Assembly: GCA_013239625.1 (NCBI GenBank)
Contig: MU055753.1
Span: forward strand, 3,706,153-3,770,152
DNA length: 64,000 nt
Reading direction: 5' to 3'
Origin: Lama guanicoe
Lineage: Eukaryota
The position numbers and the translations under genes were made by a program. The notes beneath the pieces were generated by a model that searched no databases, was not told the DNA's origin, and saw only the letters and a list, made by a program, of their open reading frames with translations. Each line of letters opens with the position of its first letter. Position 1 is the stretch's first letter. This document shows positions 33,652 through 59,068 of this stretch, piece after piece.

Positions 33652-36600
33652 TCAGCTCAGGATGAAGGCCAGGAGCAGATTTGAGGTCACAATGAGCACA
33701 GGTCCTGGTCCGAGAAGGTGGGGGCCTCCCGAGAGGGCCTCTGTGCGGAGAAGGGAAGACTCACACTCTCCCCCTCACTCTGCCCTGACCCCACCCGCCC
33801 GGCCACCCCAGCCCACCTCGGACGTTGAAGTCCAGAACCAGGTAGCCATTGGGGATGCCGCCATGGAGCCCCAGCCCCAGGCTGTCCAGGTCATCCTGTG
33901 ACTGCCGGGAGATCCAGTCCTGCACAAGGCTGTTCCCCTTCTCAGCCTTCAGGCCCACCAGGTTTGGGCCCAGAAGTTTCTGCACCTCAGCAATGGTCAG
34001 CGGCTGCCAGGGCCCCCAGACGGCAGTCAGGGTCCACTTGCCTTTCCCAGAAGGTTGCTTTCCTCTACTGTGTCCAAACCACCCACCCCATGCCTCCCCA
34101 TCCAGACCCTGCCTTGGCCCCTCCAGACTTTGGAGAGGGCCTTGGCTACCCCTCAAAGGCCCCACCCCTGGATGCCCCCCTTCTCTGTGGTTGTACCAGC
34201 ACAGCCTCTGTCTGCAGCTTCTTGAACGTGGCCAGGTCCATGTTTATGTTCTGCTGACTGAGAGCCCGCAGGTCCTCCATGGGGGCCCCACCTGCCCATG
34301 GGAGAAGGCCCTCTAAGTATGAGAGCTTGCAACAGCCCCTAGTCTCACCCTCTGACCACAGGCTACCAGAAGCCACTTCCTTTCCTGAGAGTTTTCCCAA
34401 AAATTCCTTTGCCTGGTGACCACCTGACCCTCTGGGTTGGAAGAAAGGCTGGAGGTGCCCAAAACTCACAGGATCTCAGCCTATACACACTTGGAGGGAC
34501 ACAGGGTACACTTTGGTCACACGGCCAACAGGCTGCCCAGTGAGGGGGGAACCTGGCAGCATGGATGCGGGAGCTTCAGGCATCACCCTCCCCTCCCCAG
34601 CCATGTCCTCCCTGGCTCACCCAGGTAGGGCTTGATATTCTCAAAGTATTCAGACCCTGTCATGTTCTTGAAGACAATGCGGGCCTTGGGATAGAGGACG
34701 GCTATCTGCTGTGGGCTGCATGCATCCAGGTCCTGCGGCCTGGTCACCCTGGGGAGGTAGCACAGGGCCAGGCAGTGAGCTGGGAGCATGGCACGCCCAC
34801 CACACCTGAAAGAGCCCTGGACTCACCAGACAACATTGAGGCTCATGGAGCCCAGCTGCTCAGGGCTGAGAAGGCACAGGTAGGTAGGGTGGAGAGTGGC
34901 CAGGGTCTCCAGGGTGGCCTTGTCCAGCTGGCCCCCTCTCACTACATAGCGGGCAATCAGGGCAGCCACCTGTGGGAAGAGGCCACTAGGTGGCTTGGGG
35001 CAGCGAGAGATGTATCCCCTTGGACCTGCACAACCTCACATGCTGTGTCTGCCCCTCCCCACCCTGGTAGATGGTCACCTGAGCATCCATCTTGTGTCCT
35101 TTGCTGACTTCGAGCAGAGATTTCACAGTCTCCAGGGATGTCACATTCCACTTGTAGATGTCCTCAGGGGTGACCGAAAGGAAGAAGTACCTCAGGTGCT
35201 GGATCAGGGACTCTGGGTATCCCTGTGGGTAGAACTTCCCCAGAAAGTGACCATGAGGGCCACAGCCACTCCCCGGGCAGCTGGGAAAGCCGAGCTATGG
35301 CAGGCAGGTGGGAGCCCGAGTCCTGAACTACCTTGTCCAATTTGCGCTTAAAAATGTGGAGATGCTGGTAGGTGAAAGGTATCAAGTTCACCCGGTCCAT
35401 CTGAGCAGCCAGCAGGGCCCCGTCCACACAGGCCTCCAGCTCCCACTCCTCGTAGAAGACGAGTTTTTCATCCACCACTTGGGCTTTCCGCCCCGGGGGG
35501 CAGGCCTTCTCTGCAGGGGTAGGCAGGGGGTTGGGGACTGGGCTTCTCCCATCAACCTCTTCCTCCCACACCCACACTGAGACCCTGGGCAACACATGAC
35601 CTCTCCGGGTCTCAGTTTATGCATCAGCAAAATGGGGTGTTTCTGTTCACTCTCTTGGGTCATCATGATTGACAAGAAGGGCCACAGGCGCAGGCAGGTG
35701 AGACATCACATGCCAGCCCCCACCCTACATCTTCTGACGCCCAATGGGGCTGGGCACTGTGCTCACTCTCTGTGCCCCGCCAGGCCCTTGGGATGATGAC
35801 AGTCAGCTCAGGCTGTGGCCAGGACTGGTCCCGGGAGGTGTGCTGCAGCCATGGGGTCGTGAGGCCCTGAGAACAAAGCAGCGCTGGGACTGAGCAGAGA
35901 AGCCTGGCGCTCAAGGACCCCCACCCAGGGCCAGAAAACCCTCTTTGATTCCCCAGAGGGGCCTTACCAATCCCGTGTCTGCAGCCTGGGCCCTGGAAGG
36001 TAACATCCACCCTGCAGGGGACGGCACACCAGGCTCAAGGGGATGGCCAGGGACTTCTAGCAATGCCTGCTGCAGTCCCCCACCCTGGCGAGGAAGGAGA
36101 CAAAGCTGGCCCCTCCCAGCCCCGTGCACACCCCATGGGTGTAGAAGCAGAGGGTTAGGCCCCTGCACCCCACGATATCACGTCCTGCAACACCACACCA
36201 GGGAGCACAGGCCTCCTCCTGGGGCCTCGCTGCTCAGGGCAGTCAGACACCTGTCTCATGGGCACCTTCAGTTTGGCCTGTGCCCCCATCACCACCCTGC
36301 CTCAACCTCCAACCCCGTAGGTCACCGCAGTCCAGCATGGGTGCCGGACATAGTCACCTCTCAGGGCAGAGATATGGCTGACAGCCTACCTGGGACTTGA
36401 GGCACCTGATGAGATTCAGGACACTTGTCTGGGCTCAGGGCACCTAATTAGATTCAGAGCATCTGCCCAGGATTCGAGGCACCTGCCTAGGGCAGGGTTG
36501 GGGGGCACTGTCCACAGCCAGGGAAGGAGGCATAGAGCAGGTAGCGCCTTTCCTAAGGCCCCGAGCCCTAGGGACCCACAGCTACCCTTGGACGCTCTCT

Positions 36601-36726
36601 GGCACTCCAGTATTTTGCCACAGCTCATCATCATTACTCACCGAGGCCTAGAAGCAGGAGCAGGAGGCTGCCATGAGTTGAGGTCCCATAGGACTCCAGT
36701 GGGGTTCGAGCAGTCTGCAAGGCCAT
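33652..36726 (-). CDS. MSLN: Mesothelin, short 401-aa form lacking the MPF-encoding exons 4-9
   Basis: Exons (- strand): 36726-36642 (MALQTARTPLESYGTSTHGSLLLLLLGLG), 36011-35968, 35866-35767, 35510-35332 (KACPPGRKAQVVDEKLVFYEEWELEACVDGALL), 35234-35079, 34969-34827, 34748-34621, 34291-34197, 34003-33817 (GLHGGIPNGYLVLD), 33740-33652 (GPI signal); 1206 nt in frame. AATAAA on - at 33555-33560. Confidence 0.94.
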
Positions 36727-39160: not shown

Positions 39161-41987
39161 ATGGAGACCTGGGGAGGGATGTGGGGTGGAGAGCTGCCTC
39201 TGCCTCTCCCACTGTGGGCGGGTGTGGGAGCCCCGGGCAGATTGACCCACGTACCAGGTGTGTGTAGAGCCACGCCCTTGCCGCTTAGGGTCTTACTCTC
39301 CCATTTCTCAGGTGGGGAAACTGAGGCTCGGTGCTGCAGGGAGGTCACAATCACACAGCAAGGCAAGGTGTGTTCTCCCTGCTGGTGCCATGAGAGTCTC
39401 CGTCGGCCACCCCCCAAGCCCAAGGTCAGCAGGTTCGGGGTGGTGGCTACTCAGCCAGAATGTGACTCCCGGGAGCGAGTTCCAGGATCAGGGCTGTTTC
39501 GCCTGCACATCACCATAGGGGTGGTCAGGTGTGGGGCTGAAGGAGCCCACCTACCGAGGTACCGGCTGTCTCCCAGGTGGGAGGTGGAAGCCACCTTCCT
39601 GCTGCTGTGGCTACAAGGTTAGACAATGTGTGTCTTTGTGCTAGCCGGATGCCAGCATCCGCATGCCGATCTGACTTTGCTCCATGGCTTTGGTGTGCAC
39701 CCCGGCAGATGGAGTCGCTGTGACTCCCTCACTGCCCACCCCAACCCTGTGTGCTCCAATATTTTGGTGAACAGGAATCCCCTGTGTGAAGTCTGTCTCT
39801 GCATTTCACATCTGCAAAGGCTTCTGTTGGCTGACCCAAGTATGTACAGCTGCCCCATCTCTGACCTTTTTCCATGAGCTGGGTTTTCTATTATGTGCAG
39901 TGGAGCCAAATGCTAATTGATACAAAATTCAGGAAGGCTGCCAGGTATAAGAACCAACTTACACATAGAGTAAGTGCCCTGGAAGAAAAGTTCCGTTTGC
40001 AGAGAACGACTGAAAACTTCTGGACAAGATGTAAAAAACCAATTCCCTAAGGGCTCTGGGGTATGAAGGAAACAAGACAGATTTCAGGTGGGAATTGATA
40101 CCAGCGTGGGGTGTGTCTCCCTTTGTGTGAGGGGCTTTATTGGGTGGAGCACTTAGACTCCAGCAGAAATCACACCACGTTTCTGGCTGAAGAGAGGAAG
40201 GAGCCCAGAATCCCCAGACAGTAGAGAGTGAATGGAGAACTCTGAAAAAGAGAGAGCCAGAGGAGGGAACCCCAAATTCTGTGCATGGATGCCACCTAGA
40301 CCTCCTGCTGACCCCTGAGCCATGTGTGTGCAGGGCAGACGGGAAACAGCTCAGATTACAAACTGGCCAAGACTGACCTCTGCCCTCCTCGGGGTGGCAG
40401 AGGTTACAGCTCAAGTCTGACTGAGCTCACTGTCCACCAAAACAGAGGCATCAACAGTCTTTGTAGGAATATAACAGAATGCAGTGTCCACACAACAAAA
40501 TAGTCACAACATTTGTGACTTGGCATAGGGAGAGCTGGGAGATTGTGACCCATTCTCCAGGGAAGAGAATCCATGCCAAGTTAAGATAGTTATTAGCATT
40601 ATTAGACAACGAGGGAATGGAAAATTAGCTCTTGTGAATGCCGAGGTAGGAAAAAATGACAGTATTTTCTAAAGAACCAAACAGGAAATATTAAAAATGA
40701 AAAATCTGAAATTTAAAAATTCCCTGGATGGACTTAACCGGATCCATCACTTCCGATTGAGGGTTAGGTGGGAGCTACCCAATTGCACAGGTAAATGGAT
40801 TGTGAGATGTGGCAGTTTCCTCTGTGTCTGCAAGGAGGAACTGCAGTCTGAGCTCAAAAGATACAGCGACTGTGGTGTGCCTGGGAAAGGAGAGGTCATG
40901 TCTGGTTTTAACTCTGATGGCATAAGAAGTATATGAAACACATTATTTTTGTTGTTGTTAAGATGACGGTAAAGCATTATATGTTTTGCCAGTAAGTTCT
41001 GTTCTCCCTTGTAATGTTAGGTTGACTTTGTTAAGAGACATTATCAAGTTAGAAGCAAAAGGTGAATTCCAAAGGCATCTGGCGTTCAATGACTCAGATT
41101 AAAGGAAGCTCTTCTCTGTGTATATCCTAACATTGAATTCTACACTTCAAATGGGTAAGTTACATAGTGTGGAAATTCTATCTCAGGGAAGCTGTTTTTG
41201 AAAGACAAGCCAAAGACTTGAACAGACACTTTACAAAAGAAGTTAACGGTAAATGGTCAATCAGCTCATGAGAAGATGCCCAACTCCACCACTCCCTGGG
41301 GAGATGCAAATCAAATCCACAAGGAGACACATACCCACCAGAATGACAACATTTAAAGGCACTGACAAGGCCAAGTGTGTCACGGATGTGGGACGGTTGG
41401 GAGTCTCAAACCCTGCTGGCGGGAGCACAAGGTAATATGGGCACTTCTGTTTGGCATTTTCTTACGAAGCTAAACATACAATTAACCATACAACTTAGCC
41501 ATTCTCCTCCTAAGTAACTGGTCCAGAGAAACAAATAAGTGCACAGAAAGACTTGTACATGAATATTCCTAGCAACTCTACTTACAATACCAAAATGGGG
41601 AAAAACAACTTCCCATCAATAGATAAATAAACAAAACATGGTATATTCACATGATGCCGTCCTAGTCAGCAGTAAGAAAGAACAAACTACTGATGTGAGG
41701 AGGATGAATTTCAAAATCATCATGCTGACTGAAAGAGGCTGACATCAAAGAGGACGTGATGTATGATTCTGTTTCTATAAAAATGTTAAACAGCAAACTA
41801 ATCTATTATGACAAAAAGCACATCAGTGGTGGCCAGGGGCCAGGCAGCTTCATCAAAATTAAGGATTCCTGTTCATAGGAGTAAGCAGGGAGGAAACTTT
41901 TGGGGGTGATGGAAATGTTCTGTGTCTTCACTGGGGGGAGATTTCATGGGGTGTGTAACCACCCAAGCTCTTTGGACTGTGCACTTT

Positions 41988-42118
41988 TTTAAAAATGTTA
42001 TTTGTAGGGGGCAGTAACTAGGTTTATTTATTTATTTTAAATAGAGGCACTGGGGATTGAACCCAGGACCTTGAGCTTACTAAGCACATGCTCTACTGCT
42101 GAGCTATACCCTCCCCCC
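41988..42118 (-). mobile_element. Vic-1-like tRNA-derived SINE with target-site duplication
   Basis: A and B boxes on - (tagctcagcagtagag, ggttcaatcccc); 15-bp TSD tggactgt(g/a)cacttt at 41973-41987 and 42119-42133. Confidence 0.85.
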
Positions 42119-42408
42119 TGGACTGTACACTTTAAATGGATGCCTTCATTGTGCATAAATTATACCAGAAAACATTGATTTGAAAATCAATAGCATAACA
42201 AGTGTTGGCAAGGATGTGGAGAAATTGTTACATTGTGCATTGCTTGTAGGAATGTAAAATGGTGCAGGGGCTGTAGAAAACAGTCTGGTAGTTCATCAAA
42301 AACTTAAGCACAGAATAACCACATGACCCAGCAATTTAAGATACACCCCAAAGATTTGGAAACAGGGACTGAAACAGATAACCTGTGCACCCACGTTCAT
42401 AGCAGTGT

Positions 42409-42541
42409 NNNNNNNNNNNNNNNNNNNNNNNNNNNNNNNNNNNNNNNNNNNNNNNNNNNNNNNNNNNNNNNNNNNNNNNNNNNNNNNNNNNNNNNNNNNN
42501 NNNNNNNNNNNNNNNNNNNNNNNNNNNNNNNNNNNNNNNNN
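42409..42541. other. Assembly gap (133 N)
   Basis: Run of N. Confidence 1.
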
Positions 42542-42605
42542 CACCGTGGATGAACCTTGAAAACATCATGCTCAGTGGAAGAAATCAGATACACAAGAGT
42601 GGTCA

Positions 42606-42722
42606 GGGGAGGGTACAGTGCAGTGGTAGAGTGTGTGCTCAGCATGCACAAGGTCCTTGGTTCAATCCCCAGTACCTCATTAAATAAATAAATAAAACCT
42701 AATATCTGGCCCCCCCAAAAAA
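42606..42722 (+). mobile_element. Vic-1-like tRNA-derived SINE inserted in L1
   Basis: ggggagggtacagtgcagtggtagagtgtgtgctcagcatgcacaaggtccttggttcaatccccagtacctc followed by (taaa)n. Confidence 0.85.
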
Positions 42723-44789
42723 TTATGGTGTGATTCCATTTATATGAAATGTCCACATTAGGGAAACCCATAGAGACAGAAAGTATAACAGAGGTTACCA
42801 GGGAGGCAAGGGAAGTGGGAGTTATTGTTTATTGGGTGCAGTTTCTGTTTCAGAAGATGAAAAAAGTTCTGGAAATTGGTGGTGGTGATGGTTACATAAC
42901 ATTGCAAATGTACTTAACCATCACTGAATTGTACACCTAAAAATTATTACAATGTAATTATTTATGTGTATTTTACCACAATAAAACATCAATAGCATTC
43001 CTGTCTGTCAGCAATCAGAACAAATTTAATAGGAAAATGTATAATTTCTAATAACAATGAAATCCACAAAGTAGATTCATAGAAATCAGCCTATCTGATA
43101 ACAAAGAATTTTTTATGGAACAACCCAGCATGATAAAGTGTCAGTTCCCCTGACATTATCCTATAGTCAATTCAACCCTAACAGTCAATTCAACCCTAGG
43201 AGAATTGTTTTTCAAGAACTCAACAGATTCATTGAACATACAGGGAATAAATATCCATGAACTAAACAGAAGAGGCAAGCTGCCAGACATTAAGACACCG
43301 CCACAGTGATTAAGATAGAAACAAAGGCACAGTCTACAGATTTCAAGGAAAATACACCCTGCGCACATGGAGCTTCACTCATGGAAAAGGTGGCTCTGCA
43401 GAGCAGTGTCGGGGGAGGGACAGATCCACAGGACCGATGGTGTTGGAAAATGGGACGCCCTGAGTGAAGAAAAGTAAAGCAAGAGCCCTTGTTTACATCA
43501 GACAAGTTGGATACCGGGTGCATTAAAGACCTGTATACCACCGAGGGGACTAGATGGGCAGAGAAAGGAGGGCCTGAGGAACGCAGGGAGATGTGGAGAC
43601 CTTCCACAACAGAACCTGCCCTGAACTGGTGGGTGAACGTGACGTCACTGGAGTTAAGGATTCCTATGCAATAAACAAATCGGCAGCTAACAGGCAGCTG
43701 TCAGAAGGAGAGAAGAGATGTCTAACAGCTGACAATGCCGTGTGTGGTTCAGAAACTGGGAGGACACGTGAAGAACCGCACATCAACAAGAAAAGCCAGA
43801 AACCGATAGGAAGGGGGCCCAGGAGGCAAGCAGGAATTCTCAGGAGATTGAGGAGCTAGAGGCTTGTGAAGCCAGCTTCAACTTTTGCAGGAACCCTAGA
43901 AATTCGAACTCAAAACAGGAGATTTACAAAATTCAAAAGGTGGATCACAGCAGGTGTTGGTGACCATATGCTGAGACAAACCCAGCAATAGATTTTTTTC
44001 CTAATATGCAAAAGTATGTGATGCTCTTTAAAGAAATGTAAGAAAATGTGGAAAGATGACAGTTGCCCTGGTTCCCACCTCCTGCCCAGTCCCTGCAGCC
44101 CACTGGGGGAGCCCCTCTAGACTTTCCTCATGGTGCAGTCCTGGTGCACAGCCCACCTCCTGCTCGCCTACCCATCATGCACTCCCCCTGCCTGTCCTGT
44201 CAGGAGTTGCCCTCCAGCTACCCTTGGCTTGTTCACCATTTTTGAGTGAACAAAACAATTTAGGGGCTGTTTATTCTGCAATTAAAAAAAAGAAAAGCTT
44301 TTTGCGTTTTTTTCCACCTGGCTGAGCCTGCTCCCATCAGGGCACCTCCAGCCACACCTAAGAAGTGGGATAAATAATCTCTTCTGGCTTGGCTGTTTCC
44401 ATTGCCAGTGTAGACCCATGTAGCTCTGATCCAGTAATCCCCATGAAGCCAAGGGCAGCCAGCTAGGTCTCCTGGCAGGACCCACATTCCCAGGGGACAG
44501 GAGCCGTGCCCAAAGCTCAGTAGGTTGGCTCCTGCTCCGATTTCTCAAAATAAAAAAACCTGTCCCCCAGTCTGGGCAAAATAGAAAAGGGGACCAGAGT
44601 CCGCTGGCTTGGAGCCTGGGGCAGACATACAGTGGGCCTCTGCTCCAGGTCACCACTTCCTAACCCTAACTCAGCTGGTTCTGCTGGCTGTGTGCTTGAG
44701 TGTGCTGGCCGAGGATGGGGCTGGGGGTGCAGAAGGCCGTGGGGCTGCCATTTGCCCAACTGCCTCCTGTTCCTCATGCCTGGCTGCCC

Positions 44790-47318
44790 AGCACTGCCCA
44801 GTCACCCCCTGCTGGACCTCTCCTGCTGCCTGGGGCCCAGCATCCCAGAGCCGTGCAGCCAGGACGTGGCACTCTGTCACCAGGCTCCCCTGTGGCCTTT
44901 TGTGCTGGTAATGGACAGCATTGTCCTGGCCCAGATCCTGGTGGACACCTCCCACAACATTTTCCAGCAGATGTAGGAGCAGGCAGGCATGGGCAGCCCT
45001 GACACTGGGTCTGAGGAGGCCTGGGTGGTGACCCCACCCACACGTGCCCTGACCCTAGAAGGAAGGGCTCCCTCACTGTCTTCCAGCTGCTCCCAGAACC
45101 AGCACCCACAACATCTGCAGAAATGTCCTGACCTGCAGGTGTCTGGGGGTGAGGGTGGGTGGGCAGAGCCACCTTAATCCTCTGGCCCCCCACCCCACCA
45201 CAGTCCCAGGCCCTGGGGCAGTCACTGGGGACAGCCCTGGCTAGAGTCAGAGGTCAGGCTTGGACCCTGAAGGCCCCATCCCAGGTCCTAGGCTTGAGGG
45301 CTGCCTCCTTTGCAGATATCTGAGCTCAGCATGGGCTGAGAAGGGGCCCCTGAGCACCCCTTCCCCTCGACACATCTGAGTGGCCCTAGGGTGCAAACTC
45401 CCAGCTGTGGCTAGATACGCACCTGGGAAACAGCATCGTGTCCAACTAAGCACCTGCTGGGCTCGAACCCAAGGCTCAGCGGTGGGGAGCACGGGAAGCG
45501 GGCGCACGAGGGTGGGGTGCCTCGGGCAGACAAGTGGGAGGACAGACACCAGGGACGGCCGGGCTGACAGGCAGTGCACACCCCAGGCCCAGGTCCTGGG
45601 TAGACTTGTGCTGGCGCAGCTGGCCACCTTCCCTATGACCTCAGGTGCCATCACCTGGAAGCTGGATGTGGACCAGGCCCTGGACCAGCTCTTCCTGGAG
45701 CTCACCAGGTGAGCCTCGAGGCATGGCAGGCATCCTGGGCAGCTGGGGTGGTGCTCTCAGCCCCTCCCATCCTGCCCTCGGGCTATTCCTGTGCCCTGCC
45801 TGGCATTGCCAACCCCACATGGCAGGTCCTTCTTCAGCCCCTTGCCGACTGCAAGGCCCCCACCATGTTCCAGGACAGCTTCAGATGGTGAGTGGCCGGG
45901 CTGTGGCGGGGCCACCCCTCAAGACCATTGAGGTGACTTTGCTTCCCCACTGTCCTCAGGCTCCCGGAATGTCCCCAGTTCNNNNNNNNNNNNNNNNNNN
46001 NNNNNNNNNNNNNNNNNNNNNNNNNNNNNNNNNNNNNNNNNNNNNNNNNNNNNNNNNNNNNNNNNNNNNNNNNNNNNNNNNNNNNNNNNNNNNNNNNNNN
46101 NNNNNNNNNNNNNNNNNNNNNNNNNNNNNNTGCCTGTGGGGAGGGTGACCTAATAGAGAAGGGCCCAGATTGGGGTGTGGAGGAGCCCGGGTGCTTCGGG
46201 AGGGCAGGGTTGGAGGGCAGGGCTGACCCTGGAGGGGTCCTAGGTCACCTCCTCCACACCCCCCACAGAAGGGAAACCAAGGCAGATGTGGAGACATGGG
46301 ACAGAACCTCAGATAATTCGGGGCTGCAGCTCTCCTGGGCCAGAACAGTGGGAGGACAGCACCCCGGGCACACGTGAGGGGGGCCCTGTCGGGGTCTGCT
46401 CTGCAGAGTGGCTCCCTGTCCCCCACATACCCCAAGGCCGCCTGCTCCCTCCTTGAGAGTGGAGGTGCCCCCAGCACAAGAAAGACCTCCTCTTCCAGCA
46501 GGTACAGGGGACTCCCAGCTGTGGCGGCCCTGCTGGGTGAGCAGAGATTGTCAGGGGAGAAGGACAGGGAGCCTGGGGTGGGGTCTCCTGAGGGGAGCCC
46601 ATGATCTCACAAGCTGGGTGCTCCCCAGGTTTGGCTGCTGGGTCCCAAAAGCACACTTTCCAGGGTGACTCTCCCACAGTCAGTGGTCAGACCTGACCTT
46701 CACAAACCAGTAAAAACATCACAGAGAAAACTAGCTGAGCTTCCAATGGCCAAGTGGGCTCCAGTCACGGTGCAGGTCAGCCCCTGAGCTGTCCCCTGGG
46801 GTGGGGGCTGCCTGAGCTCCCCTCACTGGGGAGGTCCAAGGAGTGCTCCAGAAGGTGGCGGGGCCGAGGGCTGAGCAGGGAAGGGCCTGTCCCAAGCAGT
46901 AGGGGCTGGGTGACGGGTGACTGGAAGGACAGCGTCAGGGGTCACACACAGGGTTGGTGGGGGATCTACAGATGGGGGGAGTAACAAGGGGGTCAGACGT
47001 AGCAGCGGAGGAGTAGTGATGTTGCCTGTTCCCCCGTAGTGGGGGTGTTGGTCGCCAGCGTGCCAGAGATGGACATGTTTGTGAAAACTGACCCCAGGGA
47101 GGTCCGAGTGGGCAGTCAGGCATCTCTAGGTCTGTCATCTTCTCAGGCCAGGCTGGTGGAGAAGCTCTGGATGCCCCCCTCAACCCCTGCCTAGGGTACA
47201 CCAGCCCCAGACCTGCTGTGAGTGCAGGGTTGGGGCCTGCGACTACTTAGGGGCCCACAGGTCCCACAACACGCAGAGGGGCTGCCTCTCCAGAAGCCAG
47301 GTTACCAAGACCTGCAGG
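44790..47318 (+). pseudogene. Decayed multi-exon gene, probably multi-RGS-domain (RGS22/RGSL1-like)
   Basis: Splice-flanked, coding-like segments (about 44790-44976, 45316-45481, 45587-45708, 45826-45887, 46407-46536, 47261-47318) with in-frame stops (44974, 45337, 45447) and frameshifts. Translated fragments fit successive RGS helices. Family assignment is by eye only. Confidence 0.5.
45982..46130. other. Assembly gap (149 N)
   Basis: Run of N. Confidence 1.
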
Positions 47319-49374
47319 GTGAGCCTGCAGATCTGAAGGGTGTGGAGCACCATAGGGCAGGCAGGCCTGGGGGAGGTCCTGGGACTGGGGGTCCTGCAGA
47401 GTTCCCCTACTCTACCTGGCAGCCCCACGCCCCTGCCACAGATACTCCAGATGGCTCCTTGATGACTTGGGAGCTGAGTACAAAGTTGGGGTGCAGAGGC
47501 AACTTGGGGCTGCCAGCAAGCCCGACCTTGATGTTCTAATGGGGCCATGGCTAACAACACCGTAAACCACTTGCAAACCACTTGCAAACCTGCCATCAGG
47601 ACAGGCCAGTGGTTTAACAAATGGCTTGGAGTTGCCCCATCCAAGCTAGTTTTGTGCCCGGTGCTTGCCCCCCGAGAGCACAGACCAGTGGCCTGGCCGT
47701 CCTCCCTGGGACCCGTGGCAGAGGATGGAGCTGCTGGGCCCAGAGCCTGGTCAGGCAATAGAGGGGCTTCTCCTCTCAGCTTGCCCGCTGGTGCTGCTTG
47801 GCCCACTGTCCCCACAGAGATGAAGCCTCTGGGTCACCTGCTTGGTCCTCTTGGGGCCAGGGTAGGGCCAACCTTCCATGCCTGTGGACAGATGTGTGTG
47901 CACCTGTCCTCCCGAGGTCGGAGCGTCACCACTGCAGGGCCAGGGCCTCTCTGTGACCATCTCTTTCTGCTGCCTCTTGCAGCCCCACCAGGCAGGAGCA
48001 GAGGGGGGACACTGGAGGGCTGCCAGGCTCTCCCTGGGCCCTCTTCTCTCCCAGCCTGGCCCTGCCTGCCGAGCAGGTCAAGCAGGCCTCTCATTAGTGG
48101 CTAATTGCCATGTGCATCAGGCCTCCCAGGGCTGTTGCTGGGATCACACCTGTTGACAAGATGTGGCGGCCCCAGAGGGAAGGCACCGGTGTTGATTATG
48201 CTGCTAATGATGTGCTCATTGTCCACAGTAATTCCCTTCAACAAATAAAGCACGGCTCAACCCAGGGGTGCAATCTGGCTTCACAGAGAGCCTGAGGGGC
48301 TTGGTAGGGACCCCTCAGGCAGCCAGGGAACAGGCCCGCATATTTGCCTACAGAAGGCTACTTTCTCTCTCAGATTCTAGAGTAAGAGGCACAGGGGCCC
48401 ACTCTCACATCAGACCTGCCCTATTTGGGGTCCCCCCACCCCAGAGCTCAGAGTCTGGAGAAGACTTACAGGGCTGTGGAAGGGTCTGCAGGGACAAACC
48501 TGGAGGCTTTTTGTTTCCACATCCACTGAGATGGGGTGGGGGGAGCACGCAGGACCAGAAGAGATCTGGGGGATCTACCCAGAACCCCTGAGTGTGAAGA
48601 CCTTCACCTCAAAAGGAGAACCCTAGTTGACCATCCAAACTAACAAACAACATTTTCCCTAGCCTATAAAAGGTATGGAGGTGGCCTGAGAAGGTCTGGG
48701 TATGAGGCCAACCTAGTACTTGGACAGTTTTCTGAGGCAGGCCCCTGGGAAACGAGTCCCCTGTTCCACACAACCACGGCCACGCAGGCAGGGGCTGGCC
48801 AACCCAGCAGTCTCCCCACTCCTCCAACCTGCCACTCCTGGGCCCCTAAACTCAATGCTAGGCACCTCTCAGCAGGTGACCCCACAGTGCTGGGGACAGC
48901 AGGACGTCCCTGATAGGGGGCGTCTTGGTGGGTCCTGTGGATCACGGGCACCTTGATTCCATGGGCTGCACATGCCTGCTCCTACATTCCAGCCACTCGG
49001 AGTCCCACTTCTTTATAATTTCTTGGGGGACCTTGACCCACAACACAGTAACATTGGAGGATGCACTAAGTGTTTTGAAGTTATATGTTTAGGAACATTT
49101 TTAATTTATTTTGGAAAAGACAAAATCCCTTCTAATTGTGCCCACCCTGGGTCATTTTATTCCCACCGCACACAGGCTGTCTGCCTTGAAAAGATGGCCA
49201 CTGGCCCAGCCCCGGCTGTGTGGCAAAGTCCTCAAGGATGGTCCCTCCCTCCCACCTGTCCCCTGAGGGCCAACCTAGCCCATGTAGGAGGTGGTCTATG
49301 GCCAGGTGAGACAATTCTGTTAGGCAGCTGTCCTCTGACCCCTGGAAGTCCCACAAACACTTGGACCTGTGGCC

Positions 49375-49782
49375 TGTGGCAGGCTGAATGGTGAACCCCC
49401 AGATGTTTTTCCAGCAGAACCCATGAATCAGACCTTATTTGGAAAAAGATGCAATTAAGTCAAGGATCTCAAGAGGAGATCATCTTGGATTAGGGTGGCC
49501 CTAAATCCAATGACAAGTCCTTATAAGATAGGAGAGAAGACACACAGGTATCATGTGACAATGGAGGCAGACTAGAGGTATGCAGCCCAAACCTAGGAAG
49601 GCCTGGAGACCCCAGAAGCTGGATGAGGCAGGAAGCAGCCCCCTGAAGCCTTTGGAGCAGGCATGGGCCTGCCGACACCTTCATTTCAGACTTCGTGCTT
49701 CCAGAACTGAGATAATACATTTCCGTTGTTTTAAGCCCCCCAGTTGTGGTCCTTCATTCCAGCAGCCGCAGGACACTAACAC
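49375..49782 (+). mobile_element. MLT1 (ERVL-MaLR) solo LTR
   Basis: Begins tgtggcaggctgaatgg; contains ggattagggtggccctaaatccaatgacaagtccttataaga and ccagaactgagataatacatttccgttgttttaagcc; ends ctaacaca. Confidence 0.85.
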
Positions 49783-50321
49783 AGGTCCAGTCCCTCGCAG
49801 GGTGAAATTCTGAGGCCAACTGGCAGGAGGGGTCAGCAGCTCCACATACCTTGGTGGAAACCCTGCTGCTCCCATCCAGCGATCAGATGGTCGTCTTTGG
49901 CCAGAGTGGATCTTGTGGGCATGTCCAGAGCAAGCAGAGGCCGAGCTCTGCACCTGCTCCAGTTCACGGAAAGGGATGCCCACACACAGCCACAGCGTCA
50001 GGACAGCTGTACAGGCCGACCTGCCTGGCCTTAGGAGCTCCGGCCCCTCCCTGTGTCCTCACCTGGCCCTTGCGTTCCCCCAAGTGTGTAAACTCTGGTA
50101 TTGCACATGGGAAGTGCATGGTGAAAACTCGATAATGATGATGATGAAACAATTTGCAAACCATGAGAGCAGGCACACCAGAGACAAGGTGCAATGCTGG
50201 CATAAGAGCTGAGGGTCTCTAGGGACAGACATGGCTGTGAGTTAATAAAAGACCCTCAAGGGGCTGAAAAGTCCCCAATCCTGGCTCCACCCAGAGCAGG
50301 CAGGAGGAGGACCTGCCCTCA

Positions 50322-50363
<42 letters not shown>

Positions 50364-50412
50364 CAGAGAGAGAGAGAGAGCGCGCGAGTGAGCAAGTGAG
50401 CGAGCGAGTGAG
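50322..50412. repeat. Compound microsatellite (GT)n(GA)n(GAGC/GAGT)n
   Basis: Seen directly in the sequence. Confidence 0.95.
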
Positions 50413-50579
50413 AGCTCTGTTTTTTTTTAACGAGAAACTGACTCTGGTAGTCACCCAGGCACTCCTTCAGGGACAGTTCGGCCAATGGCATGAAACTGGA
50501 CAGACCAGGGTGTACTTACTGCCTGGGCCTCTCAGGGACACCTTGAAGTGGCCAGCTTGAGTGGTAGCCTCTAGCCCTG

Positions 50580-51152
50580 TCGTTTTTAAATAGTTTCATT
50601 GAGATATAAATTCACATACCATTCAATTTGCCCACTTGAAGTGTGCAACTCAATGGTTTTTAATATATTACATTACTAATTTTCAAATTATGTAACAAGG
50701 TGAGGGAAAGTAATAGCTCAGTGGCAGATGCATTTTTAGCATGCAGGGGTCCTGGGCTCAATCCCCAGTACCTCCATTAAAATTGAAATTTGCCACTGTA
50801 ACCATTTCTAAGTGCACACTTTAGTGGCATTAGTTACATTCACAACGTTGTGCAAACATCACCACCAACTATTTCCAAAACTGAAACCCCCCTCCCAAGG
50901 CCCTGGTGGCCTCTAATCTACTTTCTGTCTCTATGGATTTGTCTGTTCTGCATGTTTCACAGGAGTGGAATCACATACTAATGGTGTTTTGTGCCTGGCT
51001 TCTCTCGCTGAACATCGTGCCTTCAGGGTGCATCTACATTATAGCGTGTCCATTCTTCATCCTTCTATAGCTGAATGATAGTCCATCATGTGTATAGACC
51101 ACATTCCTTTATCCGCATCTACTGATGGACATGGGCTGTTTCCACCTTTTGT
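50580..51152 (-). mobile_element. L1 (L1MB-like) 3' end fragment interrupted by a short Vic-1-like SINE (50703-50782, +)
   Basis: attgagatataaattcacatacc, ctaatctactttctgtctctatggattt and gatggacatgggctgtttccacctttt; SINE tagctcagtggcaga...gctcaatccccagtacc. Confidence 0.8.
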
Positions 51153-52129: not shown

Positions 52130-52800
52130 GACTACTTCTGCAAGCTCCCGAAGCGGAGATGCCGGAGCCGCACACCTGATCGTCAGGTGAGCCCGGGACC
52201 GCCCAGGAGGCGCCTCCCTTTCCCGCCGCCCTGCCGCCCCTCCGCCCTTACGGCGGGGAAAGTGAGAGGCTCCCGGGCCCGCCAGCAGGAGACGCGCGCC
52301 GCACCGGAACCCAGTCCCGGGGCCTGATGCGCATGCGCCGCACTGGCGCTTTCCGGCAGCGTGGCGGAACCACCTCACCGTTTCGCGACGTTTGGCGACC
52401 CCTGTGTGCGGAAGTCGGCGGCAGTGTGGCGCCATGGCGTCGCCCTTCAGCGGGGCGCTGCAGCTGACGGACCTCGACGACTTCATCGCGCCATCTCAGG
52501 TGGGCGGGCCGGGCGGCGGTCGTGCGCGGGGAGGTCCCCCACCGCAGTGTCTCCCCTGAGAGAGGGGCTCGGAAGCCGGGCTGTTGGGCCGCGCAGCCCC
52601 GGGGCGACCGCGTCCGCTTCCATGGCGGGCATGGCAACAGGAGTCACCTAGCTGGGGTGGCGAACTCAGGAGTGGGGCCGGGGAGACCCTACCAGGCTTC
52701 TCTGGCCGGCTTCTTGCGTGTGAGCAGGATGGGACGGCCCCACCCAGCTGCGAGGGCAAGGGAGGTGTCGTCGGTGTCGCCTTCGAGGAGTAAAGCAGAG
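52130..52800 (+). promoter_or_regulatory. CIAO3: CIAO3 CpG-island promoter
   Basis: CpG island with a perfect NRF1 site TGCGCATGCGC (52328-52338), ETS cores (TTCCGG, CGGAAGT) and YY1-like GCCATGGCG at the start codon. Confidence 0.8.
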
Positions 52801-55800
52801 CTTACTCTTAAAGGGAACGGGATAGCTGCACTTGAAAGGTGGCCGCCTTTATCTGGTGTACCTGCTTATCGATTGCTACCAGCCATCCAGAACCAGGGCT
52901 CTGAGGGCCATAGTTAAGGAGTCCCAGAAAGAGGGGGCGGAGCTGGAGCACCGCACCAGAGCATCGCAGCAGGGAGAAGACAGGCCTCCCGCCAAGGCTT
53001 CCTGGGGCTGGTCGTCTTTGGGAATGCGATGGCCAGGGAGGTTCTCCAAGTGCTGAGAGAGACAGCGGGAACTTAAGGAGGTAGGGAGAGAAAGGAACTT
53101 TCTTCCAGGAACTGGGCTGGGAGGTGACCTCCAAGCAAAACTTTCCTTCTGACCCCTTGGCTTCCTCTCAGTAGCCAGTGAAACACTGGCCACTGGTCCT
53201 CTGTGCAGTGCCATGCCACCTGTTGACACTGAGGAAGGGTGAAGGGTCGGAGTTGGCTGTCTGCAGACAGGTTGGCGTGCAGACCCACTTAGCGCTGCCT
53301 CCATCTGACTGTGACCTGCAGAGTGACCCTTAGTGTAGGTGGGGTGTGAATGTAAGTAGAGTAAGTAGCCACACTGCCAAGACTGCTTCTGCTGCAGGAA
53401 GACAGGAATCGGGGCAGAGCCTTTGTCCCCCACAGCAGTGGTGTGGCCATCAGGCTGCCCCTCTTCCTCTGGAACCTTTGCACACTCAGGTCCCCGTTTG
53501 CGATCTCTTACTGGTGTAGGACTGCATCAAGCCCATGAAAGTGGATAAGAGGCCAGGAAGCGGCATGGCCAAGATCCACATCGAGGATGATGGGAGTTAC
53601 TTCCAAGTCAGTCAGGTGAGTTCCAGCTCAGGTGATTGAAACACATTTTGTTGCTCCATCTGATGACAAGTGCAGTGACCATGGGACCCTCCACCTCTCA
53701 CCAGTCTTTTCTCACTAGTCAAATTCATTGACTGCCAGGGAGGCTGGGAGAGATTGGAACCCTCAGGGATGGTGGGGAAGGAGAACAGAGGCTGAACATG
53801 GAGCAGAGATGGCAGTTCCCATGTTTCTCTCCCTCTCTCTCTGAATTCTAATTGTGTGAGATTTTCTAGTCCAGGTCACTTGTTCTTAATGAATACCTAC
53901 TTCCTGTGTGATTTAACAATGATAAGATCCTAATCTATCAGTGCTAAAATTTACCCCAACTCTTAGCCATCTGAATTCTCAAGAACATCCATTGCCATCA
54001 CATGGACCACAGGCACCAGGCTCACCGGCCCAGGGACCCCTCCCAAGCAGGGAAGAGCCACAGGATGGCTCATGGTGGGGCCAGACAGTGGGATCCCAAG
54101 GTCATGGGGAAAGAGCCACTGTCTACTTAGTCCAGGAGGGTGACCCAGCAGCACACCATGGGTCCCACCCAATCCTGGCACAGCACGGAGACCCAGGGTA
54201 GGTGAGAGTGCCAGTGAGCCCTGCTTCAGGGCAGCAGTGGTTGATCTGGAGAGAAGTCAGAAGCACACCAGCCTCCTGCTCAGCACAGCGTCACAGTCTG
54301 GCCCTTCAGGCCCATCCAATTGGGAAAAGGCATTGAACTCAAGTTGTGGCTTAGGTGCATAGTGAGGCCTAGTGAGCTGGGCTGGAAGGGAGTTCTAGTC
54401 TCCTTCAGCCCTTAGGTCACATTCTGGGCCCCTGAAGCTCACCTGGCCCTGGCTCAGATCTTTCCTGCGTGTGAAGCGGGAGTAAAGGGGTTTTGCTGGG
54501 ATCACTTGCATCTAAGAAGAGTTGCTGCATGTCAGCCTGGAGGCCTTGAACACCAAGTACTGGAACTGTCTGGCTGAGTCTGATGTGAGTGCCCCTCGTG
54601 TCCCTCTTGCACTCCACACTCCTCCAAGTGCCAACATTTGGCGGTCACAGCCCAGCAGGGCACAAGCTCCCACCATCTCCTGTCTTTGCCCCCTCCTCGT
54701 CATTGTGTCCTTTCTTCCTTCATCTCCACCCTGGCCTTTCTCCTCCTCCTCTTAGAGCCTGGCCTTTGGCATTTTCCTGTCTCCACAGCCCCATGAGTAC
54801 AGCCTGGGGACCAACGACCCTCCAAGACCTCTGTGACCAGCCAGCTGCTTCTCTGTAGATTTAATGCTTGAGGCCTCCTTAGTGTGATTCTGACATGCCA
54901 GCCAAGTTTGTACCAAAGTTAGAATTTGGTGCTACTATGAAAATCTAGAATGTATATAAATATTTCTGTAATAAATATTTAATTTCTAAAATTTTAGTGG
55001 GCACATAAAGCCATTCAGCTGCTGTGTTGTGAGCCAGAGAATGAAGGTTTCCTGTGGGTTCCGTTACCCTGAGCTCCACCGCTTCATGTCTTCATGCAGC
55101 AGGGCCCTTGGTATACCGAGTTCTCTTGCTTCCAGGACGGAGGGACTAGGAGGCTGGAGAAGGCCAAGATCTCGTTGGATGACTGCCTGGCATGTAGTGG
55201 CTGTGTCACCTCGGCAGAGACCGTGCTCATCACTCAGCAGAGCCACGAGGAGCTGCGGAAGGTTCTAGGTGCTAATGAGGTAAGCGGTAGGTGGTCCTCA
55301 GGACTCTACTATAACCCGACATCAGCCCCAGCCTCGCTTGCTCGTGTTGTCTGAGCAGCTCATCTCCTGGTGACTCTTGGCATCTTTAAGTCTCATCAGT
55401 GGGATCTCAGTGAATTACTGGTCAGTATTCCATTGTTGAGGTGCTAGCCCTAAATGTTAGGTTCTCTGTGTACACAAAAATGACATGCCTTGATTGAGTT
55501 AGGGTCTGGTCTTGCTAGCCCTGGCCCACTGGGAGTCTGTAAAACACACAGAGTGAGTGGCATGTCCCTTGCTTTGCAGATAGCGGCACCTGGTCACCAG
55601 AGGCTGGTTGTCATCTCGGTCTCACCCCAGTCCAGAGCATCATTGGCTGCGAGATTCCAGCTAAATCCTACAGACACTGCCAGGAAATTAACTGCATTCT
55701 TTAAAAAAATAGGTGGGTGCTGAACCTTGGGGAGCACTCCAGCTTGGACACAAGGCTCAGGGGGCGGTCTTCACACCTCTGGTCTTTGGACCTAAACGTA

Positions 55801-58800
55801 TCAGAAACCCTATTTAAAGTTGACTTTAGCTTAAAGTTTTGATGATTGAGAGCAGTGCCTTTTAAGAGAAAACCGTCTGAATTCTGATGTTGCACTTTTG
55901 CGAGTCTGGAATTCACTCCCTCCTTGTGTTTTTTAAAAATTATCACCATCAAGGAGCATTTCCCAGGTCTGAGCTGGGTTCTGGCTCAGAAAAAAATAAA
56001 GGTTGGTTGACCTCTTTATGCCGGGAGCTGGCTGGGAGAGTGTGGGGAGGCTGTGGCATAGGCTGCTGTCCTGGACACCGTGTAGGGTATGGCCTGGTCC
56101 TGGTGGCCACTGAGCTCAGAGGAGGTGAGCCCCAAGGAATCCAGGCTGGCCACAATGCCAGCGGGTCCTGTGACACTCCTGGGGGGCATGGTTGGCAGCA
56201 CCTCACACTCCGGGTGTCCTTCTTAGAGGTGAAGTGGTGCTCTCCTTCCAGGGGCACACTACGTGTTTGATACCGCCTTCTCACGGAACTTCAGTCTCCT
56301 TGAGAGCCAGCGAGAGTTTGTGCAGCGATTCCGAGAACAGGCGGACTCCAAGCAGGCCTTGCCTGTGCTGACTTCCGCCTGCCCAGGTGTGTGCGCACTG
56401 GGGACAGGATGTTGACACCTGGATGTGGGCGACGGGAGTGCTGGGGGGGTGGGAGGAGCCCGAGAGTCACCTGTAGTCACTTCAGTTCCCTGAGGGGTGA
56501 TTGCAGGGATGCTAGAGACGTGACAGGGACAGCAGAGTGGGGCCATTCCTCGGGGACCCTGACTCCTTGTGCAAGTGTGTCTACCCCCAGAACCTTCACG
56601 TCACAGCCCCATGTGCTCCCCATGTCGGCCTCAGGCTGGATCTGCTACGCCGAGAAGACCCATGGGAGCTTCCTCCTCCCTTACATTAGCACTGCCCGGT
56701 CCCCGCAGCAGGTCATGGGCTCCCTGGTCAAGGACTTCTTCGCCCAGCAACAGGTAACGGGAACCCTGCTGCTGTTGAGAGTCTGTGTTGTTTCCTTAAA
56801 AGTGAGTTCATGGACCCACACGCCAAACTGTGTTCCCTGCTGTGCCTGTGCCGTCACCCCTGCCTCAGCCTGGCCTCTTTGCTGCCTGGGTTGGGCAGCT
56901 GCTCCACAGTCAACGTTTCTCCATGCAGCGTTTGACCCCCGACAAGATCTACCACGTGACGGTGATGCCCTGCTACGACAAAAAGCTGGAAGCTTCCAGA
57001 CCCGACTTTTTCAGCCAGGAACACCAGTCGCGCGATGTGGATTGTGTCATCACAACAGGTGCAGATCCCTGAGCCCAGCTGGTGCTGTGTCCCCAGCGCA
57101 GGCCCTGGCACAGCTCCTCTGGCTCACGTCGGTCACCCCATCTCTGAGTTGAGCAGCCTCACAGGCTCTCAAGTGCTTAAAAGGCAGAGAAATGAACACC
57201 CTTCCGGCAGCCAGATAGCTTGAGGGATGGTTGCCCTCCAGGGACACAGTGCCCTGCCCACCTCCAGGTGCACTGTGAGGCGCCCTGGGGACGGTGCATC
57301 CACCTCTGTGGCTGAGTTCAGCCTCTACCCACGAGCCAGGGGTGGACACGTGGCCTCTGTGTCCAGGTCACAGATTGCTGTGGATGCAGGTGATGTGGGT
57401 GTTCTTGAACTGACTCTTGTTTTCCTTGAGATTCAGCTGAAGAGCGTGTTCTGTGGTTTCATCACAGGAGAAGTTTTGAAGCTGCTGGAAGAGGAAGGAG
57501 TCTCACTGTCAGACCTGGAGCCAGCTCCCCTGGACAGTCTGTAAGTTACCACCTGTCACGGTGGAGGGGCAGGAAGTATTTCCAGCATCAGGGTGCTCAA
57601 GATGTTAGGGTCATGGGTGTCCTGGTGGGCAGGAGATGTGACAATGTGGGGCTAGGCACTGTCCCTTCCTGCCTTCTCTGCCATGGCTCCTTTCTGATTG
57701 GTTTTGCTTCTGCCCCGTGGTATGTCTTGGTGTCCACAGAGACAGTTGAGTTCATGAGACAGGCCTGTGGACAATTGGCTGATAGTCATCAGAGCTGACC
57801 CCAACTTCATACAGGTCTCAGCTCCCCAGAACAGGTGACATGATGGAGGGGACAGGCCTTTCCCCATGAGCTGCCTCCTGACAGGGCCACAAAGCCCCTG
57901 TGGTCCATGACTCATTTTCCACTTAGCAAATGCTCTCAAACCTGAGAGACAGAGGTTACCCAGAAGCCTCAGCAGACAGCAGCCCCAGTACCACCTGAGG
58001 CCATGCCCTCCTCCCCAGGTACAGCAGCGTGTCCCCCCAGGAGCCCACCAGCCATCGGGGTGGGGGCTCGGGGGGCTACCTGGAGCACGTGTTCCGGCAT
58101 GCAGCCCAGGAGCTCTTTGGAATCCACGTGACTGAGGTCACCTACAGACCCCTGAGGTCAGTGGCAAAAGCTGGAGCTTGGGGAACGGGGCAGCTGGAGC
58201 TCCAGGTCCCCTCACTGCAGTAGGCATGGAGGAGGATATCAGGGTGGGCTTGGCGTGGACCTTGGGGCACCAGGAAGCTCACATGAAAGGGCCAAAGTCT
58301 CTAGTCCTCAGTCTCCTCATCGTAGGAGTCGATGTCCTTACCCACAGCATGGTGGTCCAGGGCCCTGAGTAGCCCGTGGTGGCAGGACAGTGTTCCTGGC
58401 ACAGGGTGTGTCCCCATGTCCTCGGTGGGAGGGCTGGGGCCTCCATGTCAGACCAGGAAACCAAGGCTGGGTGTAAGGTCACCTGCCCAGCTCGTGGAAG
58501 TGAGTTTTCTACCCTCCTCTGTCACTGTCCCCACCCAGGAGGGACTGGGCACAGTGTGGACAACCGGGTCTGTGCTCCCCCAGGAACAAGGACCTGCAGG
58601 AAGTGACTCTGGAGAGGGAGGGTCAGGTCCTGCTGCACTTTGCTGTGGCCTATGGCTTCCGCAACATCCAGAACCTGGTGCAGAAACTCAAGAGGGGGCG
58701 CTGCCCATACCACTACGTGGAGGTCATGGCCTGCCCCGCAGGTGCGCAGACAGGGTGGGGCCCTCTGGGACCCCCAGGTGACGATGCCCTTCCCATGACC

Positions 58801-59068
58801 ATACTCTTGCCTGTCCTTCCCTGCCACAGGCTGCTTGAATGGCGGAGGCCAGCTCAAGGCTCCCGACAGGCCTGGCAAGGAGCTTCTGCAGCAGGTTGAG
58901 AGGCTGTACAGCATGGTCAGGACAGAGGTGCCAGAGGAAGCGCCCGGGATCCAGGAGCTGTATGGGCACTGGCTGCAGGGTGAGGGCTCAGAGAGGGCCA
59001 GCCGCCTGCTGCACACAAGCTACCACGCAGTGGAGAAGGCTGGCTCTGGCCTTAGCATCAGGTGGTAG
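52434..59068 (+). CDS. CIAO3: Cytosolic iron-sulfur assembly component 3 (NARFL/IOP1), 476 aa, 11 exons
   Basis: Exons 52434-52499, 53520-53615, 55136-55279, 55580-55712, 56252-56386, 56635-56753, 56929-57058, 57468-57540, 58019-58156, 58584-58741, 58830-59068 (1431 nt). [92 protein letters not shown], and the C-terminal Trp (IRW*). Confidence 0.98.

What the first reader, a model, noticed from the sequence alone, without database searches (positions are those of the whole stretch)
44790..47318. Fossil gene between MSLN and CIAO3 with apparent tandem RGS domains
Seen: a same-strand chain of segments with AG/GT boundaries and GC3-rich codon-like composition (e.g. atc acc tgg aag ctg gat gtg gac cag gcc ctg gac cag ctc ttc ctg gag ctc acc ag|gtgagc), carrying stops and frameshifts, with AATAAA at 48244. 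Inference from recalled RGS sequences: fragment 1 LSCCLGPSIPEPCSQDV...DTSHNIFQQM*E fits the RGS22-like INCFINSSIPPALQIDI and the RGS helix-7/8 AQKKIFNLMEK. Fragments 2-4, ..EHP..SQLWLD..APAGLEPKAQR / SGAITWKLDVDQAL / PTMFQDSFRW, follow the RGS order (W helix, RGS4-like SPSKLSPKAKK, AP-EVNID loop, helix 7). Fragment 5 TY.K..APSLRVEVP.QHKKDLL...AVAALL repeats that loop and helix pattern. This suggests three tandem RGS-like domains of an RGS22/RGSL1-type gene that I do not know from human or mouse at this locus. Its 5' part may have been disrupted by the L1 cluster at 40-44 kb. An intact ortholog elsewhere would be an uncharacterised G-protein regulator.
Basis: inference. Interest (0 to 1): 0.75.

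Follow-up and report, generated by a model that had tools for sequence, protein, structure and literature searches.

The report
Decayed multi-exon gene beside camelid mesothelin
Between two ordinary genes of a camel-family genome lie the broken exons of what looks like a long-dead gene; whether it once encoded an RGS-type protein is plausible but unproven, and it matters only if a working copy survives in another animal.

Summary
The fossil gene looks real; its RGS identity is unproven. The window is camelid. On the + strand at 44.79-47.32 kb there are exon-sized pieces with four near-consensus donors (0.66 expected). Two pieces (44792-44982, 45604-45708) have a codon-position GC contrast above all ~2,300 control windows. 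The best exon chain scores 33.4, reached by 0 of 30 non-coding windows and 3 of 400 shuffles. Stops, frame changes and background-level CpG say it is dead. A Camelus ferus model used several of the same pieces, fused to CIAO3. No tool linked any piece to RGS: 68 translations against Pfam/NCBIfam, 10 PDB searches, three homologue searches, a 1.8-billion-protein scan, the Atlas and folds. These negatives are weak, since Pfam also missed the adjacent apparent L1 remnants and the spliced product was not searched. The proposed domains are spaced closer than in RGS22, and one piece fits a HEAT repeat weakly. Even if RGS22-like, 'G-protein regulator' is doubtful: RGS22 is a ciliary radial-spoke protein (PMC13443885). 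Fossil gene ~0.85; RGS-like ancestor ~0.42; interest 0.45.

The parts
44650..44722 (+). Possible further upstream exon (hydrophobic, coding-like); 5' end of the gene not found
   Evidence: coding-scan segment 44658-44721 score 11.7; GC contrast P 0.056; no clear donor
44792..44982 (+). Piece A: pseudo-exon, 63 codons, TAG at 44974
   Evidence: P 0.003; 0 of 2300; used by C. ferus model up to 44972
45087..45138 (+). Piece A2: uncertain small pseudo-exon
   Evidence: acceptor score 4.3; chosen by chain model and C. ferus model; coding P 0.18
45316..45481 (+). Piece B: pseudo-exon with stops (45337, 45387, 45447) and at least one frame change
   Evidence: coding score not significant
45604..45708 (+). 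Piece C: best-kept pseudo-exon, open frame; acceptor could be 45587, 45604 or 45645
   Evidence: P 0.003; top + strand segment of the MSLN-CIAO3 interval outside the CIAO3 CpG island; donor 45709
45826..45887 (+). Piece D: pseudo-exon, in phase with C for six codons, then a frame change
   Evidence: P 0.04; P 0.06; donor 45888
45960..46130 (+). Strong acceptor at 45959 opening an exon that runs into the assembly gap (45982-46130)
   Evidence: acceptor score 6.1; in phase with D; gap
46407..46536 (+). Piece E: pseudo-exon with several frame changes
   Evidence: donor 46537; no coding signal as a single frame
47040..47318 (+). Piece F: candidate pseudo-exon in phase with E, stops at 47192 and 47219; weak HEAT-like stretch from 47051
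   Evidence: donor 47319; coding P 0.28
48244..48249 (+). AATAAA, possible polyadenylation signal
   Evidence: weak
40000..44050 (.). AT-rich block of apparent L1 and SINE remnants upstream of the pieces
   Evidence: GC 0.34-0.45; L1-like peptides recognised by recall translations, no Pfam hit; tRNA-derived SINE
33652..36726 (-). MSLN (flanking gene; partial automatic model)
   Evidence: name from recall
52434..59068 (+). CIAO3/NARFL (flanking gene, intact, 11 exons)

Best explanation
This is an unprocessed, probably unitary pseudogene: the remains of at least six to eight small-intron exons (about 360 codons recovered) of a gene that ran on the + strand, divergent from MSLN and upstream of CIAO3. 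It makes no full-length protein now; stops and frame changes interrupt A, B, D, E and F (shown). It has decayed long enough to lose its coding CpGs, and the damage probably predates the split from the wild camel (inferred). The ancestral product was a largely alpha-helical protein (inferred). My single most likely family is a multi-RGS protein of the RGS22/RGSL1 kind, which rests on recalled resemblance of the ends of A, C/D and F to RGS helices 7-8. If so, it most likely worked as a structural or scaffolding protein of motile cilia or sperm flagella, like RGS22, and not as a G-alpha GAP. The fossil-gene part alone I put at about 0.85; the confidence given is for fossil plus RGS-like ancestor.
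For: Donor excess, P 0.005. GC3-GC2 contrast in A and C above all controls. Codon-model P 0.003 for A and C. Exon-chain score 14.6 against a maximum of 8.4 in 13 controls; with relaxed penalties 33.4 against 0 of 30 real windows and 3 of 400 shuffles, reverse strand 13.0, while real genes decayed by 10% scored 8.8-60.4 in 12 simulations. Introns of 72-503 nt are like the neighbours'. Frame-keeping junctions exist for B-C, C-D, D-gap exon and E-F. CpG observed/expected is 0.10-0.34 in the pieces (0.18 overall) against 0.29-0.61 in live coding sequence and 0.15-0.19 in controls. An independent C. ferus model uses A, A2, C and 47226-47318 and leaves A just before the stop. For RGS: by eye only, the end of C shares three consecutive residues and the hydrophobic rhythm with helix 7-8 of the RGS8 sequence printed in bioRxiv 10.1101/2023.01.05.522954; the single-sequence models put helices at the end of A, the end of C and in F.
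Against: No profile, sequence or fold hit to RGS in any search (listed under Tried and rejected). No named intact orthologue. Domain-end spacing of about 108 and 116-166 codons is shorter than RGS22's 166-196 and, for the first, shorter than one ~120-residue domain (lengths). The three proposed repeats do not resemble one another: 0 of 6 pairs below P 0.13. B, E and F have no coding signal on their own. Several control windows were part of the background training set, which lowers their scores, and chain penalties were changed after the first run. Each in-phase junction was picked among several acceptors, so phase agreement is weak evidence.
Confidence: 0.42

Rival explanations
1. A real fossil gene, but of some other family that no search here could reach (for example a membrane or secreted protein; three pieces are markedly hydrophobic: 44658-44721, the second half of A, and the end of E with the start of F).
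For: All the exon evidence; absence of any RGS hit; hydrophobic coding-like segments.
Against: No positive hit to any family; not a copy of a neighbouring gene (tblastn best E 0.08).
Confidence: 0.3
2. A fossil of a HEAT/armadillo-repeat (for example maestro-like) gene.
For: With a 32-column matrix from 21 bacterial HEAT repeats, position 47051, in the frame that splicing from E selects, ranks 2 of 126,934 six-frame positions.
Against: Score only 6.2 bits against 17.6-68.6 for true repeats; A-E rank 118-696, mostly in wrong frames. The HMM version of the test was negative. The hypothesis was formed after seeing F. Pfam HEAT models give nothing. The model of F shows one helix, no hairpin.
Confidence: 0.12
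3. Not a gene: chance ORF-like and splice-like patterns in GC-rich intergenic DNA, picked out after the fact.
For: Only A and C are individually significant; 3 of 400 shuffles reach the chain score; other non-genic places score as high in the plain segment scan (e.g. 22894-23035, 17.6); no named homologue outside camelids.
Against: Three largely independent signals (donors, codon-position contrast, chain) agree on one strand; an independent predictor chose the same pieces.
Confidence: 0.12
4. A living gene whose stops and frame changes are assembly errors, or which splices round them.
For: The assembly has gaps here; C is open, and A, A2 and short C can be spliced into an open frame.
Against: Six in-frame stops plus several frame changes; CpG at background; the C. 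ferus model avoids the same damaged parts; no start exon. Protein differences to C. ferus (3 of 97 in A+A2+C) do not separate neutral (6 of 100) from constrained (7 of 421) change: Fisher P 0.50 and 0.41.
Confidence: 0.04

Closest known systems
RGS22 (four divergent RGS domains; radial-spoke RS1/2 component, PMC13443885)
   Same: Proposed tandem helical domains; resemblance of piece ends to RGS helices 7-8 is by recall and by eye only.
   Different: No sequence, profile or fold hit; only ~360 codons recovered; domain ends would be ~108 and 116-166 codons apart versus 166-196; different locus (recalled); dead gene.
RGSL1 (RGS-like 1)
   Same: Recalled resemblance of B and C to one RGSL1 domain; a lead only.
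   Different: Not tested: no RGSL1 sequence was available from any tool; human RGSL1 lies in another gene cluster (recalled).
Canonical RGS GAPs (RGS4/RGS8; Pfam PF00615)
   Same: End of C shares three consecutive residues and helical periodicity with RGS8 helix 7-8 (by eye).
   Different: No PF00615 hit for any piece; the conserved helix-3/4 and C-terminal motifs of RGS8 are not recognisable as such.
Unitary (unprocessed) pseudogenes
   Same: Intron-containing remnant with stops and frame changes, no second copy in the window, between conserved neighbours (MSLN-NARFL order also in chicken, PMC12159700 passage).
   Different: The intact orthologue that defines 'unitary' was not found; a paralogue elsewhere in the genome could not be excluded.
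Camelus ferus 'NARFL' 657-aa database model (P0001)
   Same: Uses A, A2, short C and 47226-47318.
   Different: It is a chimera with CIAO3 exon 2 onward that skips CIAO3's true first exon; not evidence of a protein.

Membership tests
Unprocessed/unitary pseudogene | Exon-intron structure with residual coding signal | tested here: met
   (significant for A, C, donors and chain; not for B, E, F)
Unprocessed/unitary pseudogene | Disabling lesions | tested here: met
   six stops, several frame changes
Unprocessed/unitary pseudogene | Intact syntenic orthologue in another lineage and no functional parent in this genome | not testable with these tools
   no vertebrate genome collection; protein searches found no named orthologue
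RGS domain proteins (PF00615) | Profile match to the RGS domain | tested here: inconclusive
   0 RGS hits in 62 Pfam queries; only unspliced pieces were scanned, and Pfam also missed the apparent L1 remnants
RGS domain proteins (PF00615) | Nine-helix RGS fold | tested here: inconclusive
   model pLDDT 42.8; Foldseek none, best VIA Z 3.9 with rmsd 6.1 over 68 residues, unrelated
RGS domain proteins (PF00615) | G-alpha-binding residues / GAP activity | not testable with these tools
   no reliable alignment; dead gene
RGS22/RGSL1 type | Sequence similarity to RGS22 or RGSL1 | tested here: inconclusive
   no hit in 10 PDB searches or 4 protein-collection searches; presence of RGS22 in the PDB copy was not confirmed; direct alignment not possible
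RGS22/RGSL1 type | Three or four tandem ~120-residue domains spaced as in RGS22 | tested here: inconclusive
   recovered spacing ~108 and 116-166 codons versus 166-196; lost exons or deletions could explain the shortfall
RGS22/RGSL1 type | Expression in multiciliated cells and sperm | not testable with these tools
   no expression data
HEAT-repeat proteins | Several tandem repeats matching a HEAT profile | tested here: inconclusive
   one weak, post-hoc match; HMM and Pfam negative; profile was bacterial only
Mesothelin family / copy of a neighbouring gene | Similarity to MSLN, MSLNL, CIAO3, HAGHL, CHTF18, RPUSD1 or GNG13 | tested here: not met
   tblastn of 7 gene models against 36801-52400: best E 0.084, none on the pieces in frame

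The most novel reading that the evidence does not exclude
The remnant marks a third vertebrate RGS22/RGSL1-type gene, never named, that is still intact between MSLN and CIAO3 in some mammals, reptiles, birds or fish and was lost in camelids and probably in human and mouse; like RGS22 it would be a structural part of motile-cilium or sperm radial spokes whose loss tracks changes in axoneme design.
Probability: 0.3. Interest if true: 0.7.

Novelty: new member of a known kind. Interest (0 to 1): 0.45.

Why it matters
A dead gene is common; this one matters as a pointer. No description of a gene in this interval turned up in ten literature searches, and the only named database trace is a wrong fusion to CIAO3. 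If an intact orthologue exists, it is an unstudied vertebrate gene with a datable loss, and if it is RGS22-like it would add a candidate to the short list of animal-specific radial-spoke proteins. It also shows that the Camelus ferus 657-residue 'NARFL' record has a spurious 200-residue N-terminus.

Tried and rejected
Pfam: 0 of 8, 0 of 24, 0 of 12 queries hit anything at E<=10; 3 of 18 long read-throughs gave unrelated sub-threshold hits, E 0.04-0.18. NCBIfam 0 of 6. PDB sequence search, 10 queries: six gave nothing, four gave chance-level hits, E 0.65-3.4. Homologue search, longer proteins only: A gave 1 of 13 candidates (the C. ferus model); C gave 2 of 29 (that model and one unnamed protein); F gave 0 of 250. 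The unnamed protein may be human and is no named reference, so it was not fetched and stays unchecked. The 1.84-billion-protein profile scan gave 4 hits, E 1.6e-10 to 2.9e-4; the one with a vertebrate-independent name is an insect tandem-repeat protein, and the others are 874-3428 residues with 8, 11 or no separate stretches, so I treat all four as repeat artefacts, three of them without seeing their letters. Atlas: no usable feature hit for A+A2+C; for C only TetR C-terminal helical clusters at 0.84-0.89 with under 130 shared features, a lead-level score. AlphaFold2 and fold searches uninformative. Plasmid tblastn with F: none. Rfam 36-53 kb: only the tRNA-like SINE. Internal-repeat test negative. 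HEAT HMM negative, HEAT matrix weakly positive for F only. Literature: searches list no paper on a gene in this interval. In Mudge et al. 2019 (PMC6886504) no supplement names MSLN, NARFL, CIAO3, RGS22 or RGSL1; of 169 chr16 mentions in Data S1 I saw 60, and the pseudogene rows seen start at 20.7 Mb; the coordinate-phrase search may not match the file's format. The spliced product was not searched against any library. Metagenome and viral contig collections were not searched, nor the prokaryotic genome collection.

Full report
Setting. The window is from a camelid. The only named homologue of the candidate exons is a Camelus ferus model, CIAO3 differs from it at 7 of 421 aligned residues, and simple tRNA-derived SINEs are present (SINEBase PMC3531059, two passages seen, names vic-1 as the simple SINE of camels; the assignment of these copies to vic-1 is from recall). 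A simple gene finder gave the order GNG13, CHTF18, RPUSD1, MSLNL, MSLN (minus, ending 36726), then CIAO3 (plus, from 52434) and HAGHL (CIAO3 named, the other names from recall; the automatic models miss some exons). MSLN and NARFL are also listed side by side in chicken (PMC12159700, one passage).

Observation. I call them A (44792-44982), A2 (45087-45138), B (45316-45481), C (to 45708), D (45826-45887), an exon start at 45960 that runs into the gap, E (46407-46536) and F (47040-47318). Four donors of the form G|GTRAGY lie on the + strand in 2.4 kb, against one on the minus strand and 0.66 expected from 36 kb of non-genic controls (P 0.005, pattern chosen after seeing them). A and C have the low-GC2, high-GC3 pattern of coding DNA more strongly than any of about 2,300 overlapping control windows each; D is marginal, F is not significant. 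A three-periodic model trained on the seven neighbours gives P 0.003 for A and C, 0.06 for D and nothing for A2, B, E or F (3 of 10 segments under 0.01). A stop- and frameshift-tolerant exon-chain model scored the region 14.6 against at most 8.4 in 13 controls. After I relaxed the penalties it scored 33.4, reached by 0 of 30 overlapping real windows (maximum 23.9) and 3 of 400 block shuffles of the region; intact neighbours scored 91-142 and, after simulated 10% decay, 8.8-60.4. Some control windows were in the background training set, which favours the test region; the shuffle and GC-contrast tests do not have that flaw. An independent predictor used A, A2, short C and 47226-47318 in C. ferus, wrongly fused to CIAO3.

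State of the gene. There are six in-frame stops in the readings used (44974, 45337, 45387, 45447, 47192, 47219) and frame changes in B, D and E. CpG observed/expected is 0.18 over the region, like non-coding controls (0.15-0.19) and below live coding sequence (0.29-0.61). Frame-keeping junctions can be chosen for B-C (acceptor 45604), C-D (117-nt intron), D to 45960, and E-F (acceptor 47040); each was chosen among alternatives. No start exon was found; an AT-rich block of apparent L1 fragments lies at 40-44 kb (identification by recall). Differences from C. ferus are too few to show selection or its absence. I conclude that it is a dead, intron-containing gene (about 0.85).

Family. No search connected any piece to RGS: 62 Pfam and 6 NCBIfam queries, 10 PDB sequence searches, three homologue searches, a profile scan of 1.84 billion proteins whose four hits look like repeat artefacts, two Atlas calls (17, 59) and fold searches on a model of pLDDT 42.8. 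These negatives carry little weight: the pieces are 20-90 decayed residues, only unspliced pieces were searched, and Pfam did not detect the apparent L1 remnants next door either. One unnamed protein matched C; it may be human and stays unchecked, and nothing here rests on it. For RGS there is only resemblance: by eye, the end of C shares three consecutive residues and the hydrophobic rhythm with helix 7-8 of the RGS8 sequence printed in a preprint supplement section (10.1101/2023.01.05.522954, one passage), and from recall the ends of A and the helix in F (residues 33-43 of the model, pLDDT about 85) fit the same helix in RGS22-type domains. Against: the three units do not resemble one another, and their ends are about 108 and 116-166 codons apart, whereas mouse RGS22's C-terminal domains end at 779, 975 and 1141 (PMC13443885). 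A HEAT-repeat reading of F ranked 2 of 126,934 positions with a bacterial matrix but scored 6.2 bits against 17.6 or more for true repeats, failed as an HMM and was conceived after seeing F. It is not a copy of a neighbour.

Mechanism. Shown: no intact reading frame; so no full-length protein today. Inferred: the ancestor was a helical protein of at least 360 residues. Most likely (0.42) it carried tandem divergent RGS domains. If so, the closest functional model is RGS22, whose four domains lack the G-alpha-binding residues and which stabilises radial spokes 1 and 2 in motile cilia and sperm (PMC13443885: abstract, passages, section 6 and part 1 of section 13 read; its Supplementary Information with the domain alignments was too large to read, and may bear on the register). 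So 'ciliary scaffold' is a better guess than 'G-protein regulator'. Rivals: another family 0.30, HEAT 0.12, not a gene 0.12, live gene 0.04.

Novelty. Ten literature searches (listings only) show no paper on a gene in this interval. In the PhyloCSF catalogue of Mudge et al. (PMC6886504; supplements searched, main text not read; file 1 unreadable, file 8 cut, 60 of 169 chr16 mentions of Data S1 seen) none of the flanking or RGS22/RGSL1 names occurs and the chr16 pseudogene rows seen start at 20.7 Mb. A cattle gene list (PMC4632335, one passage) names no gene between the two. These sources would not show unnamed LOC models, so the locus may already carry an automatic name in some species. It is a new member of a known kind (an unprocessed pseudogene) of unproven family.

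Verdict. Observation confirmed; interpretation partly supported. Interest 0.45; most novel reading (an unnamed, still-living RGS22-type ciliary gene elsewhere in vertebrates) probability 0.3, interest 0.7.

Noticed in passing
P0001 vs window 39515-52186: The Camelus ferus 657-aa 'NARFL' record is a chimera: about 200 N-terminal residues come from six upstream pieces (39515-39619, A, A2, short C, 47226-47318, 52076-52186) and CIAO3's true first exon (52434-52499) is skipped.
   Followed up: yes
window 44650-44722 +: Hydrophobic, coding-like stretch after an acceptor, resembling a signal or membrane segment; may be a further exon upstream of A.
   Followed up: partly
window 48093-48232: Five TAAT/ATTA words in about 140 bases just before the AATAAA, against 0.13-0.63 per 170 bases elsewhere; could be a homeodomain-type enhancer rather than a 3' UTR.
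   Followed up: partly
window 47423-47565 +: Acceptor (score 4.0) followed by an open frame of 46 codons ending in TAA; candidate last exon, but not in phase with F as read.
   Followed up: partly
window 42042-42113 -, 42606-42719, 3969-4052, 50748-50782: tRNA-derived SINE copies; one passes the Rfam tRNA threshold (51 bits) and could be mis-annotated as a tRNA.
   Followed up: partly
window 28430-32900 +: MSLNL exons recovered by the gene finder are open in this camelid; the human gene is of doubtful coding status (recalled).
   Followed up: no
window 49380-49770 and 50560-51150: Apparent MaLR-type solo LTR and an old L1 fragment between the fossil and CIAO3 (recognised by recall only).
   Followed up: no
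window 22894-23035 + and 26848-26918 -: Coding-like segments (scores 17.6 and 15.3) between RPUSD1 and MSLNL with no assigned gene.
   Followed up: no
window 1661-2348 and 6851-7252: CpG-island-like stretches upstream of GNG13 with no assigned gene.
   Followed up: no
window 42409-42541 and 45982-46130: Two assembly gaps; the second hides part of a probable exon.
   Followed up: yes
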